Of a DNA stretch of 58,998 nucleotides, positions 1-58,998 are shown piece by piece (position 1 is the first letter of the stretch; each line of letters starts with the position of its first letter). A program made the position numbers and the translations under genes. The stretch is from an uncultured Eubacteriales bacterium (GTDB taxonomy: Bacteria; Bacillota_I; Bacilli_A; RF39; UBA660). Location of the stretch: contig OMST01000008.1 in assembly GCA_900313815.1 (NCBI GenBank), positions 1-58,998 of the forward strand, read 5' to 3'. The notes beneath the pieces were generated by a model. That model was not told the DNA's origin, made no database searches, and saw only the letters and a list, made by a program, of their open reading frames with translations.

Positions 1-233
1 CTTACTAGTGTTGGTATTAAAAATATTAATACTGCAGCTACTATATTAGGTACTGCTTTTTTCTTTAATGTTGAAAGTGCATCTTGATCATTCTTAGTTG
101 AAGCACTTACTGCTTTAAATATAAGCGAAAATAGTAGTATTATTGGTACTACTACCATTATTACTTTGATTATAGTTACTACTATATTCATTATTTCTAA
201 CACATTTGGGCTTTCACATATTCCTAATATCAT
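1..233 (-). CDS. Hypothetical membrane protein, N-terminal part only (gene runs off left edge)
   Basis: Not in the ORF track. Reverse-strand ATG at 231-233 is preceded by GAGGT. It translates MILGICESPNVLEIMNIVVTIIKVIMVVVPIILLFSLIFKAV...AVPNIVAAVLIFLIPTLV with two hydrophobic segments. The frame stays open to position 1. Confidence 0.45.
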   Translation of the reverse strand, partial: MILGICESPNVLEIMNIVVTIIKVIMVVVPIILLFSLIFKAVSASTKNDQDALSTLKKKAVPNIVAAVLIFLIPTLV

Positions 234-289: not shown

Positions 290-1303
290 TTATTCATAAT
301 CAAACAAAGTTTTTTGATTATTTATCTTAAATTCTTTATAAGTTTTTTCAGTAACTATTCTTCCTCTAGATGTTCTTTTAACATATCCTTCTTGTAATAA
401 GAATGGTTCTATAACATCTTCTATAGTACCAACTTCTTCACCTATTGATGAAGCAATAGATTCTATACCTACTGGTCCTCCATTAAATTTTTCAACGATA
501 CTCATTAAATATTCAACATCTGTGCTATCTAAACCAGAATCATTAATTTTAAGGCGTTTTAAAGCTTTTTTTACAAGCGATAGTGTTATCTTACCATCAC
601 CTTCAACCAAAGCAAAATCTCCTACTCTTTTAAGCAATCTATTAGCAATTCTTGGAGTTTTTCTACTTCTTATTGCTATTTCATATGCAGCATCATCATC
701 AATTTGCATATTTAATACTCTAGCAGTTCTTTTTACTATTTCTTTTAATTCATCATTAGTATAAAAATCTAATTTAGAAACTATACCAAATCTATCACGT
801 AAAGGAGCTGATAAATCTCCAGCTCTTGTTGTTGCTCCAACTAAAGTCCATGGAGGTAAATCTATCTTTATATTTCTACTTTGTCCTTCACTTCCAATAA
901 TAATATCTAATTTAAAATCTTCCATAGCACTATATAGTATTTCTTCTATATATCTAGGTATTCTATGTATTTCATCTATAAATAATACATCATTAGGCTC
1001 TAAAGTAGATAATATTGCAGCTAAATCTCCACTTTTTTCAATAGTAGGTCCACTAGCTGTTTTAATATTGCTTCCAAGTTCATTAGCTATTATATGTGCT
1101 AAAGTAGTTTTACCTAATCCAGGAGGACCATATAATAATACATGATCTAGGTTAGTGCCTCTTAATTTAGCAGCTTTTACAAATACTTTTATATTTTCTT
1201 TAACATCAGTTTGACCTATATATTCATCAAATGAATCAGGTCTAATAGTCTTTTCAAAAGTATCTGCTTCTAATTCATGATTACTTACTATCCTTTCATC
1301 CAT
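290..1303 (-). CDS. ruvB: Holliday junction branch migration ATPase RuvB
   Basis: 337 aa. Walker [20 protein letters not shown] box, [13 protein letters not shown]-terminus. RuvB-typical length, and ruvA lies upstream. Confidence 0.95.
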
Positions 1304-1871
1304 TATTTATCTCCTTAATATAATCATATACTTTATTCCAATTATCAGCTCTATTAAATCTCTTTTCATCATGATTATATGCATTTGTAAATAATAATAC
1401 TTTTATACCAGCTGAAGATACATCTTCGCAATGACTTTCTTTATCGTCTATAAACAAATCTACTTTTTCACTAATACATTCATCTACTTTGCTTCCAGTA
1501 TCAACATATATCTTATCATAATGAACTCCATTTCTTTCCAACCAATTCTTTGTTAGATTATATGGATCTTTAATATATTTACCTTTTCTAAATGAAATAA
1601 TAATTATTTTTTTACCTTCATCATGTAATTTATTGATAACGTCTTTAGCCCCTTCTTTTATTTCTGCATTATCCATAATATATTCTAATTTATCGCTAAA
1701 GAATTGGCCTTTCATTTCTTGTGGCCATCCCATCATTTTAGTAAATTCATAAGCATCAATATCTTTAATACCAGTTCCACCCAAAACCTCTTTATCATAT
1801 TTATCTGCTTCAACTATAATACGTTCATTTGTAGAACATATTGTATCATCCATATCAATTCCAATTACCAT
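1296..1871 (-). CDS. HAD-superfamily hydrolase, 5'(3')-nucleotidase-like
   Basis: 191 aa. HAD motif I GIDMDDT (DxDxT) at the N-terminus and FIDDK near the C-terminus. Overlaps the ruvB start by 8 nt. Confidence 0.6.
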
Positions 1872-1880
1872 AACTACTCC

Positions 1881-2429
1881 TTATTTTAATAATAATTTTA
1901 ATGCTTCTTTAATTTGCTCTTCAATATTTAAAGATTTATCTACTTTAGAAACAACAGATTTAATATCATTTGTTTTGTATCCTAATGATTCAAGTGCTAA
2001 AACAAGTTCATCTGATTCTACATGTACTTCATTAGATAAAACTAATTTACCTTTTAAATCTAAAATAATTTGTCTTGCTACTTTTTCTCCTATCTTAGGA
2101 AATTTCTTTAAATATAAAATATTTTCCCTATCTATAGCATCTATAATTCCGCTAATGGAACCTGTTGCTAACATAGGTAAAGCCATTTTAGGGCCTAATC
2201 CTTTTACTTCTATTAATCTTAAAAATAAATCTCTTTCTTCTTCTGTTTTAAATCCATACAATACATTTTCATCTTCTCTAACGTGATTATATACATATGC
2301 AGTTTGTATTTCACCTTCAATAAATTTATATGGATTTGGAGTAAATATTTTATATCCTACTCCGTTACATTCAATAACGACATAATTTGCTACTGTTTTA
2401 GTTACTATTCCTTTAAAATAATCAAACAT
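1881..2429 (-). CDS. ruvA: Holliday junction DNA helicase subunit RuvA
   Basis: 182 aa. MFDYFKGIV start and helix-hairpin-helix region LIEVKGLGPKMALPML. Same operon as ruvB. Confidence 0.9.
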   Translation of the reverse strand: MFDYFKGIVTKTVANYVVIECNGVGYKIFTPNPYKFIEGEIQTAYVYNHVREDENVLYGFKTEEERDLFLRLIEVKGLGPKMALPMLATGSISGIIDAIDRENILYLKKFPKIGEKVARQIILDLKGKLVLSNEVHVESDELVLALESLGYKTNDIKSVVSKVDKSLNIEEQIKEALKLLLK

Positions 2430-27398: not shown

Positions 27399-29188
27399 TA
27401 ATTAGTATGTGGTTTTATAATAACAATTCCAGAACCTCCTGATCCTCCAGCTCCACAAATACCACTTGGGCAAAATCCGCCTGCTCCGCCTCCGCCGCCA
27501 GAACCTGTTGATGCTGTTCCATGCCCATTATTGCCAACAGAATTTGCATATCCAGTAAGTCCTCTGCTTACAGCGCCTGCACCACCTCCGCCTGCGCCTC
27601 CTACACTCGCAGTAGCAGAACCATTTGACCATGAATGAGAGCCTCCGCCACCACCAGCGCCAAATATTCCAAATCCGGATATAGTAGTGCCTCGAATCCC
27701 ATTTTCTCCCCAATAATGATTTCCATTATATGTGGATGTTGCTGTGCCACCGTTTCCACCTCTAGCACCATTAGTTAGTGTCCCACTTACTGTTCCGCTC
27801 TTAGTTGATCCGCCTGCTCCACTATTAGTACCATCGCTAAATTTGCCACCAGAACCTCCACTTACGGAAGCTATAGTAGTTGTCCCTAGTTTAATTATAG
27901 TGTTTCCACCATCAACTCCATATTCGGCAGCAGCAGAGCTACCTCCGTTTCCGCCTCTTCCAATATAAATAGTATATGTTCCTTGAGCAGTGTAATTACT
28001 TATAAAGAGTATGGCTCCTCCACCGCCGCCTCCGCCACCATTGTAAGAACCTCCAATGGCAGAATTGATCATGCCTGACGAAGCACCACCTCCGCCACCT
28101 CCGACCATATAAATATCGACGTTAGTGGCACTGGTAAATGTAATTGTTCCACTGCTAGTTATTCTCTTTGATGCGTTATTATAATTTCCATAATTAGTTA
28201 AACTTGATGTGCATTGAGAAGATGAGGATGAGCCTGTTGAACTGCTCGTACCATCAGGGCATTGAGTTCTTCCCGAATTAGAAGCCGTACTTACCACATC
28301 ATGAGCGTATCTTTTACCCGCCGGGCAATAGAACCCATTTGGACAAGTTTGGCAAGTATTGCCACTTTGTGGTAAATATGTGCCAGCAGTACAATTAACA
28401 TAACACTCCGTGACTGCTTTTGCATTTGAATCACTATTCATGGAAGTTGGGCAATTGCTAAGTCCATGATTTTGCGTATCACTGTAATATGCCTTACCAC
28501 CAGTACAATACTTTCCCGCTGGACAAACACTACATAATGTTGTTCCAGCTGCTAAATAGTTCCCAGCAGTACAATTAATATAGCACGCAGTTTTATCAGA
28601 TGAATTAGCCGAGCTTGTCATGCCTGCTGGACAATTTTCTTTTCCGCTATCAGTGCTAGCATTAAAAGCATATGTTCCACCTGGACAATACGAACCTGCT
28701 AGGCAAGGTGCACATTCTCTAGTTCCTGCTGCTAAATATTTTTTAGCTTCGCATGTGTATTCATCTACACCATTTGCAGTTACATATATAGTATCACTTG
28801 CTGATAAATTACTTATAGTTTCAATATCACTAGAAACTATTGTATCAATTGTTCCTGTTTTTCTGCATTGATAAGTACCATTTTCTGCTAGAAGTTTAAC
28901 AACCTTACCATTACCATCCATCTCTACATAATAATGAAGGTCTGAACTTCCAGATAAATTTAATTTACTGGTTGAGCCTTCAACATTAGACCACGATTTA
29001 GGAACTCCACCGTCAAGTAAATATTGTTGTCTTGCTGTTCTTATTATTGTATTTAATTCATTATTAAAACTATCCATCCTTGCTTGTTCAAACATTCTTA
29101 GTACTGCTGGTAATGCCATAATAACTAGAATAGCTAATATTGCTATTACAGCTAGTAACTCTACTAATGTAAATCCTTTTCTATTCAT
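27398..29188 (-). CDS. Prepilin-type N-terminal domain fused to a Cys-rich repeat module and a glycine-rich domain (pilin-like C)
   Basis: 596 aa starting MNRKG|FTLVELLAVIAILAILVIMALP. Residues 145-326 hold three roughly 58-aa repeats of C..C.AG.YC.GG type. Residues ~345-596 carry poly-Gly blocks (VGGGGGGAS, NGGGGGGGGAILF, GRGGNGG, GGAGGGGAG). Flanked by terminators on both sides. Confidence 0.85.
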   Translation of the reverse strand: MNRKGFTLVELLAVIAILAILVIMALPAVLRMFEQARMDSFNNELNTIIRTARQQYLLDGGVPKSWSNVEGSTSKLNLSGSSDLHYYVEMDGNGKVVKLLAENGTYQCRKTGTIDTIVSSDIETISNLSASDTIYVTANGVDEYTCEAKKYLAAGTRECAPCLAGSYCPGGTYAFNASTDSGKENCPAGMTSSANSSDKTACYINCTAGNYLAAGTTLCSVCPAGKYCTGGKAYYSDTQNHGLSNCPTSMNSDSNAKAVTECYVNCTAGTYLPQSGNTCQTCPNGFYCPAGKRYAHDVVSTASNSGRTQCPDGTSSSTGSSSSSQCTSSLTNYGNYNNASKRITSSGTITFTSATNVDIYMVGGGGGGASSGMINSAIGGSYNGGGGGGGGAILFISNYTAQGTYTIYIGRGGNGGSSAAAEYGVDGGNTIIKLGTTTIASVSGGSGGKFSDGTNSGAGGSTKSGTVSGTLTNGARGGNGGTATSTYNGNHYWGENGIRGTTISGFGIFGAGGGGGSHSWSNGSATASVGGAGGGGAGAVSRGLTGYANSVGNNGHGTASTGSGGGGGAGGFCPSGICGAGGSGGSGIVIIKPHTN

Positions 29189-29233
29189 CTATTATCACCT
29201 ATATTAATTATAACACTATAAGATTTATATTCA

Positions 29234-29259
29234 ATAAAAAAGTAGTGATATACACTACT
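29234..29259 (-). terminator. Rho-independent terminator after divIVA
   Basis: agtagtg (29241-29247) / cactact (29253-29259) with a 5-nt loop, followed by U5. Overlaps the divIVA stop. Confidence 0.5.
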
Positions 29260-57173: not shown

Positions 57174-58046
57174 TCAATTTTCAAAGTATTTTAATGGGTG
57201 TTTTTCATCACAATTAAGTCCATTTATTAAAGAATTATTGCCAATAATTTTATCAAGAGAATCAATATTTCTTTTACTCTCTAGTACTAAATTTACTGCA
57301 TTTATTATCTTGTATACACTCTCTAAGCTGTTATTATATAAGTCTATTAAAGATGTATTATATTTTTCTTTTGTACATGGATGATACCATTTCTTATGAT
57401 TTAAATTTAAATCTACGTCTTCAATATTATAGAAAGATGCACTTGATATTCTTTTTTTATAAAATATATCTATAAATCTATATATACCTTTTTTAATACC
57501 ATATTTATCATATCTAAATAACATATATATTCTCTTTACTTTATTTATACATTTATAATATAATTTACCACCATTATCTATATTATATGTTTCTTTTAAA
57601 ACATGATCTAATAGTTTTATAACATCATCATTATATTGAATATCTAAATCACTTGTTATTTTATACTCATTAGGATTTACCCCATTATTTGAAATAATAT
57701 ATTTACTTAATCCCATTTCATATACTCTATGCATTCCATTATGTAATCCACCTTTATAGAATATATAAGGATGAATAGTACTATCAAGTATATAATGGGT
57801 TAAAAAACCATATAAGCTTCCAACTACATATTTATTGTTTTCCAAATTATTATTCTTAATATATTTTATATAATTCTCAAAAAACAATAATGTTTTCTTT
57901 CTATGCATAATATACCCAATATATTTAGTTTTATTACTAAAATAAAATACATCTGGTCCTAATGAAAAATACTTAATTGATTTAGAACAATTAAATTTAT
58001 TCATTACTTTTTTACTAAAAAATATATGTGTCGTTATTTCTGCCAT
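57174..58046 (-). CDS. Hypothetical protein, possibly zinc-dependent phospholipase C-like family
   Basis: 290 aa. The N-terminal THIFF and the HYILDSTIHPYIF His-rich patterns recall the Zn-dependent PLC-like fold; this resemblance is weak. Confidence 0.3.
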   Translation of the reverse strand: MAEITTHIFFSKKVMNKFNCSKSIKYFSLGPDVFYFSNKTKYIGYIMHRKKTLLFFENYIKYIKNNNLENNKYVVGSLYGFLTHYILDSTIHPYIFYKGGLHNGMHRVYEMGLSKYIISNNGVNPNEYKITSDLDIQYNDDVIKLLDHVLKETYNIDNGGKLYYKCINKVKRIYMLFRYDKYGIKKGIYRFIDIFYKKRISSASFYNIEDVDLNLNHKKWYHPCTKEKYNTSLIDLYNNSLESVYKIINAVNLVLESKRNIDSLDKIIGNNSLINGLNCDEKHPLKYFEN

Positions 58047-58073
58047 ATTAAACTCCTACTTAATTATAACATA

Positions 58074-58102
58074 TAAAAACACCCAATAATGGGTGATTTT
58101 TT
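58074..58102. terminator. Bidirectional hairpin terminator
   Basis: cacccа-type stem: cacc ca (58080-58085) / tgggtg (58090-58095), flanked by A5 and T6 runs. Confidence 0.5.
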
Positions 58103-58114
58103 ATTATGATTAAA

Positions 58115-58708
58115 TTAATCACAATTACGCCATGTCTCTTCAGAGTAGCTTGGATTTGGATTTACACCATCAACAGGATTAGTAACATACCATTTTTTTG
58201 AAGAATCCTTTTCAACAAATGATAAATTCTTTTTGTAATCTAGTGTTTCATCAGAATTTGTAATTGATATTGTATTATCATCCTTTATTACACCATTTAT
58301 TGTATAAACATTAGATGTAGTAAAGAAACAAACATCTGATCCATATCTCACTGTACCTGTTAATATTATACTATCACCATTCACTTCATATGTTCCTACT
58401 AAAGGTTCATAAGCCACAATATTAGTATTATAAACAAATGTATTGTCATCTCTTAGTATTAGTTGATAAATTTCAATTCCATTAGGATTTAATTCAGGAT
58501 CATTACCTGGATTAAAATCCACTTCATATTCACCAACATATGTTGGATTATTCACTGTTGATTGACCTTCTTCATTTGTTGTTTGTGATTCAGGAACTGA
58601 ATTATTATTACCTCTGTTAAAATACCATATACAAATTGATATTAAACACACACCAACTACCAATAAAATTATCATTGTCATAGGTGTCTTTTTACTTTCT
58701 GTTTCCAT
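58115..58708 (-). CDS. Hypothetical N-terminally anchored extracytoplasmic protein
   Basis: Probable start METESKK at 58708 (RBS GGAAGGA); 197 aa. TM segment MTMIILLVVGVCLISICIWYF, then a soluble domain. Confidence 0.5.
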   Translation of the reverse strand: METESKKTPMTMIILLVVGVCLISICIWYFNRGNNNSVPESQTTNEEGQSTVNNPTYVGEYEVDFNPGNDPELNPNGIEIYQLILRDDNTFVYNTNIVAYEPLVGTYEVNGDSIILTGTVRYGSDVCFFTTSNVYTINGVIKDDNTISITNSDETLDYKKNLSFVEKDSSKKWYVTNPVDGVNPNPSYSEETWRNCD

Positions 58709-58787
58709 ATATACCATCCTTCCTATACTCTTCAATTATAATGGTTTCTATTTTAATAAACAAGTATATAGAAAAATTTCACTGTAA

Positions 58788-58814
58788 ATTAAAAAAGAAC
58801 TTATATAGTTCTTT
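58788..58814 (-). terminator. Rho-independent terminator 10 nt downstream of the tRNA fragment
   Basis: aaagaact (58794-58801) / agttcttt (58807-58814) with a 5-nt loop. U6 follows on the minus strand. Confidence 0.6.
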
Positions 58815-58824
58815 ACTTTTAAAG

Positions 58825-58869
58825 TGGTGTCCTCGGCACGATTCGAACGTGTGACCGACGGCTTAGAAG
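58825..58869 (-). pseudogene. 3' half (positions 32-76) of tRNA-Arg(UCU); no 5' half present
   Basis: Minus strand reads CUUCUAA-GCCGU-CGGUC-ACACG-UUCGAAU-CGUGC-CGAGGAC-A-CCA. In order these are: anticodon loop with UCU, 3' anticodon stem, 5-nt variable loop, T arm, 3' acceptor strand, discriminator and CCA, exactly 45 nt. The required partners ACGGC and GUCCUCG are absent from the 129 nt remaining upstream. Confidence 0.75.
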
Positions 58870-58998
58870 CTACTAGATTATATTGCTTCTATACACCATT
58901 TGTAAATTTACAAAGTCGCTTATTCCTTTTATTTACAAGCAATTCTTAATTACATATTGTTCTATAGATATTTATAATCAAAAATCAGTGCCTTAAAA

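What the first reader, a model, noticed from the sequence alone, without database searches (positions are those of the whole stretch)
58788..58998. Exact 3' half of tRNA-Arg(UCU) with its terminator but no 5' half: att-type junction of an element beyond the right edge
Read on the minus strand, the 45 nt at 58825-58869 are tRNA positions 32-76 with no spare base. They comprise the anticodon loop CUUCUAA, 3' anticodon stem, variable loop CGGUC, T arm with UUCGAAU, 3' acceptor strand CGAGGAC, discriminator A and CCA. A good terminator follows 10 nt downstream.

The complementary 5' anticodon-stem strand (ACGGC) and 5' acceptor strand (GUCCUCG) are absent. The sequence upstream of position 32 is unrelated AT-rich DNA. 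The T stem carries one A:C mismatch, which fits a non-functional copy.

Tyrosine integrases that target tRNA genes leave exactly this arrangement. The displaced original 3' half stays next to the native terminator. The intact tRNA is reconstituted at the far end of the island. The geometry places the inserted element at coordinates above 58869, mostly outside this window.
Basis: partly seen in the sequence, partly recalled or inferred. Interest (0 to 1): 0.62.

Follow-up and report, generated by a model that had tools for sequence, protein, structure and literature searches.

The report
Scar of a decayed tRNA-Arg island
The half tRNA gene is the right-hand scar of a mobile element that once inserted into the arginine tRNA gene of an uncultured rumen bacterium and has since shrunk to 2 kb, which is a well-known, ordinary kind of feature.

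Summary
Window 58825-58869 (minus strand) is letter for letter the last 45 nt, from the anticodon loop to CCA, of this genome's own tRNA-Arg(UCU) gene. No 5' half is present.

The window is a whole contig (C44). Its end overlaps contig C26 by the assembler's 87-nt k-mer. Independent contigs from four metagenomes span that joint. The intact tRNA therefore lies only 2,081 nt beyond the half.

That interval holds:
- a terminator;
- one modular pilin gene (prepilin N-terminus plus PARCEL/DUF285 repeats);
- a 40-codon relic of a tyrosine-integrase C-terminus;
- a GGCAC tandem repeat that is unique in the genome and, in relatives, occurs only beside att sites.

In the same genus a 36-kb conjugative element with the related intact integrase occupies this tRNA. 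Four other species carry decayed remnants there. The closest relative has an empty site.

The element is a dead 2-kb remnant, not a large island. The A:C pair in the T stem is native to the working tRNA and is not decay.

This is an ordinary feature of a known kind, and interest is low.

The parts
58825..58869 (-). Displaced 3' part of tRNA-Arg(UCU), from the first base of the anticodon loop to CCA. This is the attR core of the decayed element.
   Evidence: It is identical to the 3' 45 nt of the intact gene at C26 c[2040..2116]. No tRNA is called here. The breakpoint lies within 2 nt of those of two other element families at the same tRNA.
58791..58814 (-). Hairpin (8 bp) plus U-run. It is the likely native terminator of the tRNA gene as it stood before the insertion.
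   Evidence: Fold energy is -9.6 kcal/mol, z = -3.0. It is not called by the strict scan because it has only 2 G-C pairs. The first bases after CCA (CTTTAAAA) resemble the 'CTT' class that follows the intact tRNA in G022, G003, G010 and G357, and follows the displaced half in G013.
58870..58998 (-). Proximal 129 nt of the element's attR-side arm. The arm continues on contig C26.

Off-window parts, in C26 coordinates (C26 position p corresponds to window 58911+p):
- first GGCAC unit, 88-94;
- integrase C-terminal relic, about 107-229 (-);
- pilin/PARCEL gene, 372-1934 (-);
- terminator hairpin, about 1996-2035;
- intact tRNA-Arg(TCT), 2040-2116 (-).
   Evidence: The 87-nt end overlap of C44 and C26 equals the assembler's k. 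Single Logan contigs from four runs span the half, the C44 end and C26 up to about position 624. The integrase relic scores E = 1.6e-5 in a tblastn of the whole genome. The arm is collinear with the attR end of the G355 island.
58986..58992 (-). Second unit (GGCACTG) of a 13-nt-period tandem, ATGGCACTGTTTT AAGGCACTGATTT. It is a candidate arm-type integrase-binding site.
   Evidence: The tandem occurs once in the 1.03-Mb assembly, against 0.1 expected. In about 200 kb of relatives' loci the same motif occurs only beside att sites, in the G013 attL and attR arms and the G024 attL arm, always in the tRNA orientation. G355 has ATGGCACCATTTTACGGCACCC at the same place.
58877..58906 (-). Promoter-like site TTTACA-18-TATAAT (11 of 12) ending 7 nt before the half. 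Its -35 hexamer lies inside a 16-nt palindrome (58899-58914).
   Evidence: The number of promoter-like sites in the region is not above shuffles (6 found, 8.1 expected), so this is only a consensus match. No RNA evidence was obtained.
58115..58735 (-). 206-aa membrane-anchored protein gene. It forms the chromosomal flank of attR. The gene is absent from the closest relative.
   Evidence: ORF, with no Pfam or NCBIfam match. The gene is absent from 47 of 50 genus genomes and absent at this site in G348. Contigs from four rumen metatranscriptomes cover 58341-58712.

Best explanation
A tyrosine-integrase element of ICE or IME type once integrated into the tRNA-Arg(UCU) gene, crossing over in the anticodon loop. 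Its integrase is related to that of a 36-kb conjugative element found in a congener.

The element's own copy of the tRNA 3' part rebuilt the gene. This is now the intact tRNA on contig C26. The original 3' part, with the native terminator, was pushed to the far end and is now window 58825-58869.

Deletions then removed almost the whole element. What remains between the two 45-nt copies is 2,081 nt. In tRNA orientation it reads:
- a terminator;
- one modular type-IV-pilin gene with PARCEL/DUF285 repeats;
- the last ~40 codons of the integrase gene;
- a pair of arm-type GGCAC repeats;
- a 116-nt spacer.

The remnant has no recombinase and appears fixed in the species.

Shown by the data: the duplication, the contig adjacency, the integrase relic, the empty site in a relative, and the full element in a congener. 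Inferred: the order of events, and the GGCAC repeats acting as integrase-binding sites. Open: whether the pilin gene was cargo of the element or entered later.
For: 1. An exact 45-nt direct repeat runs from the first base of the anticodon loop to CCA, with no extension on either side.

2. C44 and C26 are adjacent. They share the 87-nt graph overlap (21 contig pairs share this length). Single independent contigs in four runs from different studies (cattle, sheep) cross the joint.

3. The G013 ICE integrase hits C26:110-229 in the whole-genome tblastn. The match is 50% over 40 residues, E = 1.6e-5, and covers the ..GHSNTNTT..YT.. block with the catalytic tyrosine. It ends at a stop just before the GGCAC tandem. 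Farther upstream that reading frame is closed by stop codons. In the sheep strain the relic differs at 6.5% of positions, against 0.7-2.8% in its neighbours.

4. The layout integrase 3' end, GGCAC tandem, ~110 nt, core is collinear with the attR end of the G355 island.

5. The GGCAC tandem is unique in the genome. In relatives' loci it occurs only beside att sites.

6. In G013, a 36.4-kb interval between the intact tRNA and a 47-nt half carries an integrase, a VirD4-type coupling protein, a MobL relaxase and a VirB4-like ATPase. There the intact tRNA carries an element-type T stem, while the displaced half carries the genus-native one. The two copies agree only from the anticodon stem/loop to the start of the T stem.

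7. Three arm families join the tRNA within 2 nt of each other.

8. The closest relative, G348, has GerM - tRNA - terminator - PLPC-like gene - HemW, with no half and no insert.
Against: - No intact integrase exists in the interval or elsewhere in the assembly. There are only two Xer-sized recombinases, but the assembly is only 67.5% complete.

- Our arm cannot be aligned with the ICE-A arms outside the core and the GGCAC motif. It was found nowhere else: not in 50 genus genomes, about 300 family genomes, or exact-pattern scans of the genome and metagenome collections. The parent element itself has therefore not been seen.

- The attL side has no GGCAC sites. Only 43 nt after CCA are free of the pilin gene's promoter region. 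That region is shared at DNA level with resident paralogues. The pilin gene may therefore not be original cargo.

- The first 15 nt after our intact tRNA resemble those after the tRNA of G348. This is unexpected if that sequence came from the element, although it could be chance in AT-rich DNA.
Confidence: 0.88

Rival explanations
1. The 2.1-kb unit is still a mobile mini-element (a cis-mobilizable element, CIME). It has no genes for integration or transfer, but its attL and attR can be recombined in trans by the integrase of a related incoming ICE. The pilin gene could then be excised and carried along.
For: Both core copies are perfect. The attR arm keeps the GGCAC tandem, which shows no change in the sheep strain while the adjacent integrase relic decays. 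Related integrases circulate in the genus. Other sequences joined at exactly 58869/58870 occur in two metagenomes, so the site is in active use. The CIME concept is established (PMC5704250).
Against: The attL side lacks any GGCAC site. In G013, G024 and G355 such sites lie 126-190 nt after the tRNA, whereas here that space is taken by the pilin gene. The arrangement is the same in four metagenomes from different hosts. No excised or empty form could be detected, and none could be, because the 31-mer contigs break inside the 45-nt repeat.
Confidence: 0.08
2. The fragment was not made in this lineage. The whole variable block between the tRNA and the PLPC-like gene was imported from another strain by homologous recombination through the conserved flanks. 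That block comprises the pilin gene, integrase relic, half, terminator and 206-aa gene. The integration event would then have happened in the donor.
For: The closest relative lacks the insert and also the 206-aa gene. The sequence after our intact tRNA resembles that of G348. The GerM-HemW interval is hypervariable in the genus, from 0.26 to 26 kb.
Against: This only moves the integrase event to a donor genome. It does not explain the half differently. No donor with this arm or block was found.
Confidence: 0.03
3. Assembly artefact, or a functional split or intron-containing tRNA.
For: The fragment lies 129 nt from a contig end, in a fragmented metagenome bin.
Against: Four independently assembled runs reproduce the half, its arm and the joint to C26. 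An intact tRNA-Arg(TCT) exists. Neither ARAGORN nor Rfam sees a tRNA at the half. No 5' half lies nearby (no other seed matches).
Confidence: 0.01

Closest known systems
tDNA-integrated genomic islands with an anticodon-centred ('A') attachment site, as defined by Williams 2002 (NAR 30:866) and catalogued by Islander (Hudson, Lau and Williams, PMC4383910)
   Same: An intact tRNA gene and a same-orientation 3' fragment mark the two ends. The fragment starts in the anticodon loop and runs to the 3' end. A tyrosine integrase is implicated. The site is empty in a close relative.
   Different: The interval is only 2.1 kb, and only about 40 codons of the integrase survive. It would fail Islander's integrase filter and is not 'putatively active'.
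Cis-mobilizable elements (CIMEs): decayed ICEs or IMEs that keep attL and attR, described in Streptococcus (reviewed in PMC5704250; listed in ICEberg 2.0, PMC6323972)
   Same: The integration and transfer genes are lost, while the direct repeats of the target gene's 3' end are kept. The remnant sits at a hot spot used by related ICEs.
   Different: Arm-type sites are seen only on the attR side. Mobilisation in trans has not been shown, and the target here is a tRNA gene in an uncultured small-genome Bacilli lineage.
The 36-kb ICE at tRNA-Arg(UCU) in congener G013 (with its remnants in G024, G023, G007) and the decayed island in G355
   Same: They use the same tRNA and the same sublocation, within 2 nt. 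The integrase C-terminus is related, at about 50% identity. GGCAC tandem repeats with the same 13-nt period lie next to the integrase 3' end and the core.
   Different: Our arm sequence is otherwise unrelated. Ours belongs to a different, unsampled member of the family. It carries a pilin gene rather than conjugation or defence genes.
Modular type IV pilins
   Same: The only gene of the remnant has a prepilin N-methylation motif and a ~150-aa pilin head. That head is shared with more than 20 paralogues. It is followed by a different module, here PARCEL/DUF285 repeats.
   Different: This concerns the cargo gene only, not the att scar. No pilus function was tested.

Membership tests
tDNA-integrated genomic island (Islander signature) | An intact tRNA gene plus a fragment of the same tRNA, in the same orientation on the same replicon | tested here: met
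   The tRNA-Arg(TCT) at C26 c[2040..2116] and the 45-nt fragment at C44 58825-58869 are both on the minus strand, 2,081 nt apart after the joint is confirmed.
tDNA-integrated genomic island (Islander signature) | The fragment begins at a canonical crossover sublocation (anticodon loop, class A) and extends to the 3' end of the gene | tested here: met
   Identity starts at the first base of the anticodon loop and ends at CCA. Two other arm families join 1 and 2 nt away. In G013 the two copies share only the anticodon stem/loop up to the start of the T stem.
tDNA-integrated genomic island (Islander signature) | A tyrosine integrase gene (PF00589) inside the interval | tested here: not met
   Only a 40-codon C-terminal relic survives, at C26 ~107-229 (E = 1.6e-5). 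The frame upstream is closed by stops. No other integrase lies in the interval.
tDNA-integrated genomic island (Islander signature) | The interval is absent from close relatives (empty site) | tested here: met
   G348 (HemW 88% and GerM 81% identical) has the tRNA followed by a terminator and the PLPC-like gene. In G005 the tRNA lies 117 nt from HemW.
Integrative and conjugative element (ICE) | Conjugation module (relaxase, coupling protein, VirB4-type ATPase) within the element | tested here: not met
   The interval holds a single gene, a pilin/PARCEL protein. The module is present in the congener's element in G013.
Cis-mobilizable element (CIME) | Integration and transfer genes lost, attL and attR retained | tested here: inconclusive
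   The genes are lost and both 45-nt cores are perfect. The candidate arm-type GGCAC sites are present only near attR. Whether attL is still a substrate is unknown.
Cis-mobilizable element (CIME) | Excision or transfer driven in trans by a related element | not testable with these tools
   The available runs are kept as 31-mer contigs, which break inside the 45-nt repeat. The attP and attB forms therefore cannot be told apart from attL and attR.
Functional, split or intron-containing tRNA gene | A complete cloverleaf recoverable at the locus | tested here: not met
   ARAGORN finds 0 genes in the window. Rfam gives no tRNA match at E<=10. No 5'-half seed occurs anywhere except in the intact gene.

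The most novel reading that the evidence does not exclude
The 2.1-kb unit may be a live cassette rather than a dead scar. It is bounded by two perfect tRNA-Arg cores and keeps arm-type sites. ICE integrases of this gut Bacilli lineage could excise and re-insert it in trans. If so, tRNA-Arg(UCU) would be an exchange slot through which modular pilin/surface-protein genes are shuffled between strains.

A related fringe reading concerns the orphan half. It has a near-consensus promoter ending 7 nt upstream and a terminator downstream, so it might be transcribed as a 3' tRNA-half-like small RNA.
Probability: 0.07. Interest if true: 0.45.

Novelty: new member of a known kind. Interest (0 to 1): 0.2.

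Why it matters
The result matters mainly as annotation.

- It explains an orphan tRNA fragment.
- It links two contigs of a fragmented rumen MAG.
- It shows that tRNA-Arg(UCU), between gerM and the hemW-like gene, is the integration hot spot of an undescribed ICE family in an uncultured small-genome Bacilli lineage of ruminant and human guts.

At this hot spot the interval ranges from about 0.1 to 36 kb. Its contents include conjugation genes, defence systems (CBASS, AbiA), toxin fragments and variable surface proteins. That is useful for island mapping in such MAGs, but it does not change what is known about how such elements work.

Tried and rejected
- **Joined sequence for read laying.** The two pieces were laid separately instead.

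- **Search for the parent element by its arm.** All searches were negative: BLAST of the 416-nt arm in about 300 family genomes and 50 genus genomes; the exact junction pattern in genome contigs; the exact GGCAC tandem in metagenome contigs; and an exact-protein look-up of the cargo gene.

- **Alignment with ICE-A arms.** Aligning our arm with the ICE-A arms showed no homology beyond the core.

- **Transcription of the half.** Metatranscriptome contigs cover only the neighbouring 206-aa gene, so nothing can be said about the half.

- **Intron or split-tRNA reading.** Rejected.

- **A:C pair as decay.** Rejected, because the intact gene and eight congeners have the same pair.

- **Which terminator is native.** The first bases after CCA fall into two classes across the genus and do not settle the question.

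- **Orthologues of the cargo pilin.** None were found in the genus. The best hit has 48% identity, so its origin (cargo or resident family) stays open.

Full report
**Observation**

On the minus strand, window 58869..58825 reads CTTCTAAGCCGTCGGTCACACGTTCGAATCGTGCCGAGGACACCA. This is a tRNA from the first base of the anticodon loop (anticodon UCU) through the variable loop, T arm and 3' acceptor strand to CCA. ARAGORN calls no tRNA anywhere in the window. Rfam gives no tRNA match in 58000-58998 even at E<=10. The fragment is therefore real and the 5' half is missing.

A hairpin begins 10 nt after CCA. It has an 8-bp stem with 2 G-C pairs and is followed by U6. It folds at -9.6 kcal/mol, z = -3.0. 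The strict terminator scan does not call it.

**Where the window lies**

The window is the whole of contig C44 of a 1.03-Mb, 75-contig, 25.9% G+C assembly that is 67.5% complete. The right edge is therefore an assembly end.

The 45-mer occurs exactly twice in the assembly. The second copy is the 3' end of the only tRNA-Arg(TCT) gene, at contig C26 c[2040..2116]. The identity block is exactly 45 nt and extends by no base on either side.

The last 87 nt of C44 are identical to the first 87 nt of C26 on the same strand. Eighty-seven is the overlap shared by 21 contig pairs of this assembly, so it is the assembler's graph overlap.

Independent assemblies (Logan contigs) of four public runs from different studies, covering cattle and sheep gut, each contain one contig that runs from the half across the C44 end to about C26 position 624. 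Their lengths are 711, 695, 696 and 1,221 nt. The joint is therefore real and the arrangement is the same in all four samples. The intact tRNA lies 2,081 nt beyond the half, in the same orientation.

**Anatomy of the 2,081 nt, in tRNA orientation**

1. After the intact tRNA comes an 11-bp hairpin with U7 (-11.4 kcal/mol, z = -3.7).
2. Next is a 520-aa ORF at C26 1934..372. It has a prepilin N-terminal methylation motif (PF07963, TIGR02532) and seven PARCEL/DUF285 repeats (PF03382 at 1e-49; TIGR02167 at 2e-61).
3. A short terminator follows the ORF.
4. The last 413 nt have no long ORF.

The pilin head (~150 aa) has more than 20 paralogues in this genome. At DNA level the similarity to these paralogues starts about 60 nt upstream of the start codon. 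Upstream of the tRNA lie gerM, gerE and a spoIIIAH-like gene.

**Integrase relic and arm sites**

No integrase ORF lies in the interval. The assembly holds only two Xer-sized tyrosine recombinases, on other contigs.

One frame of the 413-nt arm reads ..KTVSTRSGHSNTNTTLAVYTFQLESNKRLSADLFDNLINS*. A tblastn of the integrase of a congener's ICE (see below) against the whole assembly hits the two Xer-like genes and then C26:110-229. That match is 50% identity over 40 residues, E = 1.6e-5. Against the locus alone the score is E = 4e-9. The matched residues, 348-387 of 390, are the C-terminal block that carries the catalytic tyrosine. Farther upstream the frame is closed by stops.

In the sheep-gut strain the relic differs at 6.5% of positions, against 0.7-2.8% in adjacent segments. 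This fits a pseudogene.

Directly after the relic's stop codon lies ATGGCACTGTTTT AAGGCACTGATTT, a 13-nt-period tandem. Its second unit is the very start of the window's minus strand. The tandem occurs once in the whole assembly, against 0.1 expected.

**Relatives**

In 40 related genomes the tRNA is conserved. Five species of the same genus have an orphan 3' part downstream of the intact gene:

| Genome | Distance from intact tRNA to orphan 3' part |
|---|---|
| G024 | 1.4 kb |
| G023 | 2.9 kb |
| G007 | 3 kb |
| G355 | 9.4 kb |
| G013 | 36.4 kb |

*G013.* The interval is a complete ICE. It carries a 390-aa tyrosine integrase, a VirD4-type coupling protein, a MobL relaxase, a VirB4-like ATPase, an M23/LysM hydrolase and a SpaA/thioester adhesin. 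Its cargo includes an AbiA-type reverse transcriptase and a CBASS pair. The intact tRNA there has a T stem AGGCG/CGCCT, whereas the displaced half has ACACG/CGTGC, which is the genus-native form. The two copies agree only from the anticodon stem/loop to the start of the T stem. This is direct evidence that the element supplies the new 3' part and that crossover lies at the anticodon loop.

*G024, G023 and G007.* These keep both arms of this ICE family but have lost its core genes.

*G355.* The island ends with a truncated integrase (C-terminus ...LGHSNTNTTMNIYTHAYEASKQQSADMFDKILKGV*), then ATGGCACCATTTTACGGCACCC, then about 105 nt, then a 46-nt half. Our arm is collinear with this at DNA level.

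The GGCAC tandem motif, searched in about 200 kb of fetched loci, occurs only next to att sites and always in the tRNA orientation. Three distinct arm families join the tRNA sequence within 2 nt of each other, retaining 45, 46 and 47 nt. In two metagenomes, further unrelated sequences are joined at exactly 58869/58870.

**Empty site and hot spot**

The gerM-tRNA and hemW-like genes are conserved across the genus. The distance between them ranges from 256 nt to about 26 kb. In G013 the hemW-like gene lies on another contig.

In the closest relative, G348 (HemW-like protein 88% identical), the order is gerM - tRNA-Arg - terminator - PLPC-like gene - 234-aa gene - hemW. It has no half, no pilin gene and no 206-aa gene. 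G344 has one different surface-protein gene in the slot.

Record titles place these genomes among uncultured gut and rumen Bacilli. They are labelled variously Bacilli, Erysipelotrichaceae, Mollicutes or 'Clostridium sp. CAG:524'. The G013-type integrase is full-length in only 2 of 50 genus species and a relic in several others.

**Interpretation**

The fragment is the attR core of an element that integrated by tyrosine-integrase recombination in the anticodon loop of tRNA-Arg(UCU). This matches the Islander signature and its anticodon-centred 'A' class (PMC4383910). The element has decayed to a 2.1-kb remnant.

It fails Islander's integrase criterion. [quoted passage not shown] However, candidate arm sites survive only on the attR side, so continued mobility is doubtful.

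tRNA fragments of this origin are common in prokaryotic genomes (PMC9897764), and earlier notes of this scan report many.

**What remains open**

- The parent element was not found anywhere.
- It is unclear whether the pilin gene was cargo or entered later by recombination among paralogues.
- The first 15 nt after our intact tRNA resemble those after the tRNA of G348, and this is unexplained.
- The 206-aa gene beside the half is absent from the closest relative.
- A near-consensus promoter-like site ends 7 nt before the half, but no RNA evidence exists for the half.

**Verdict**

The feature is an ordinary decayed tRNA island, a new member of a known kind, in a poorly studied lineage.

Noticed in passing
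L004 2242-20000 and L005 1-18717 (G013 contig C6, about 4241-40716): A complete 36.4-kb ICE integrated in tRNA-Arg(UCU) of a congener. It carries an integrase, a VirD4-type coupling protein, a MobL relaxase, a VirB4-like ATPase, an M23/LysM hydrolase, a 2,066-aa protein and a SpaA/thioester adhesin. Its cargo includes an AbiA-type reverse transcriptase and a CBASS pair (SMODS cyclase plus 2TM effector) inserted between the integrase gene and the attR arm.
   Followed up: partly
L104 3279-12842 (G355 contig C1): A 9.4-kb decayed island at the same tRNA. It holds a truncated integrase, a Ser/Thr kinase, an FHA-ABC transporter fusion, an alpha/beta hydrolase, a VTT/DedA-like protein and an HsdM N-terminal fragment. 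Several GGCAC sites lie on the attL arm.
   Followed up: partly
L006 1505-2965, L007 3214-6141, L008 3781-6790: Short remnants of the same ICE family in G024, G023 and G007 keep both arms. Between the arms they carry a conserved 253-aa membrane protein and, in G023 and G007, an RHS/YD-type toxin C-terminal fragment with small neighbouring ORFs. These look like polymorphic-toxin and immunity leftovers.
   Followed up: no
window 58877-58914: A perfect 16-nt palindrome, TTTGTAAATTTACAAA (58899-58914), overlaps the -35 hexamer of the best promoter-like site of the region (TTTACA-18-TATAAT). The -10 hexamer of that site ends 7 nt before the orphan half. It could be an operator and promoter of the lost element, or chance in AT-rich DNA.
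   Followed up: partly
window 58115-58735: The 206-aa membrane-anchored protein gene next to the half has no family match. It is missing from 47 of 50 genus genomes, including the closest relative. Contigs from four rumen metatranscriptomes cover it.
   Followed up: partly
window 58869/58870 in runs X2 and X6: Metagenome contigs join other, unrelated sequences to the tRNA 3' part at exactly the same base (GAAACAGTTCTT... and GGTAATCCTCAT...). These point to further element families or remnants using this crossover point in co-resident relatives.
   Followed up: no
C26 1934-1996; window 29115-29241; C13 1293-1492; C29, C40 and C64 loci listed: The modular pilin paralogues share not only the N-terminal ~150 aa but also about 60 nt of upstream non-coding DNA, at 72-80% identity. 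This conserved 5' module could serve as a recombination handle for swapping C-terminal modules.
   Followed up: no
Contig ends of G000: Twenty-one contig pairs overlap by exactly 87 nt, for example C44(+) to C26(+) to C17(-). The bin could therefore be scaffolded considerably from its own graph overlaps.
   Followed up: partly
G003 contig C3 55384-55821: Another modular pilin gene, 55% identical to ours over the N-terminal 146 aa, lies about 1 kb downstream of the tRNA-Arg(UCU) of G003. It sits in a 15-kb interval that has no tRNA half. The slot may therefore hold pilin genes independently of the ICE.
   Followed up: no
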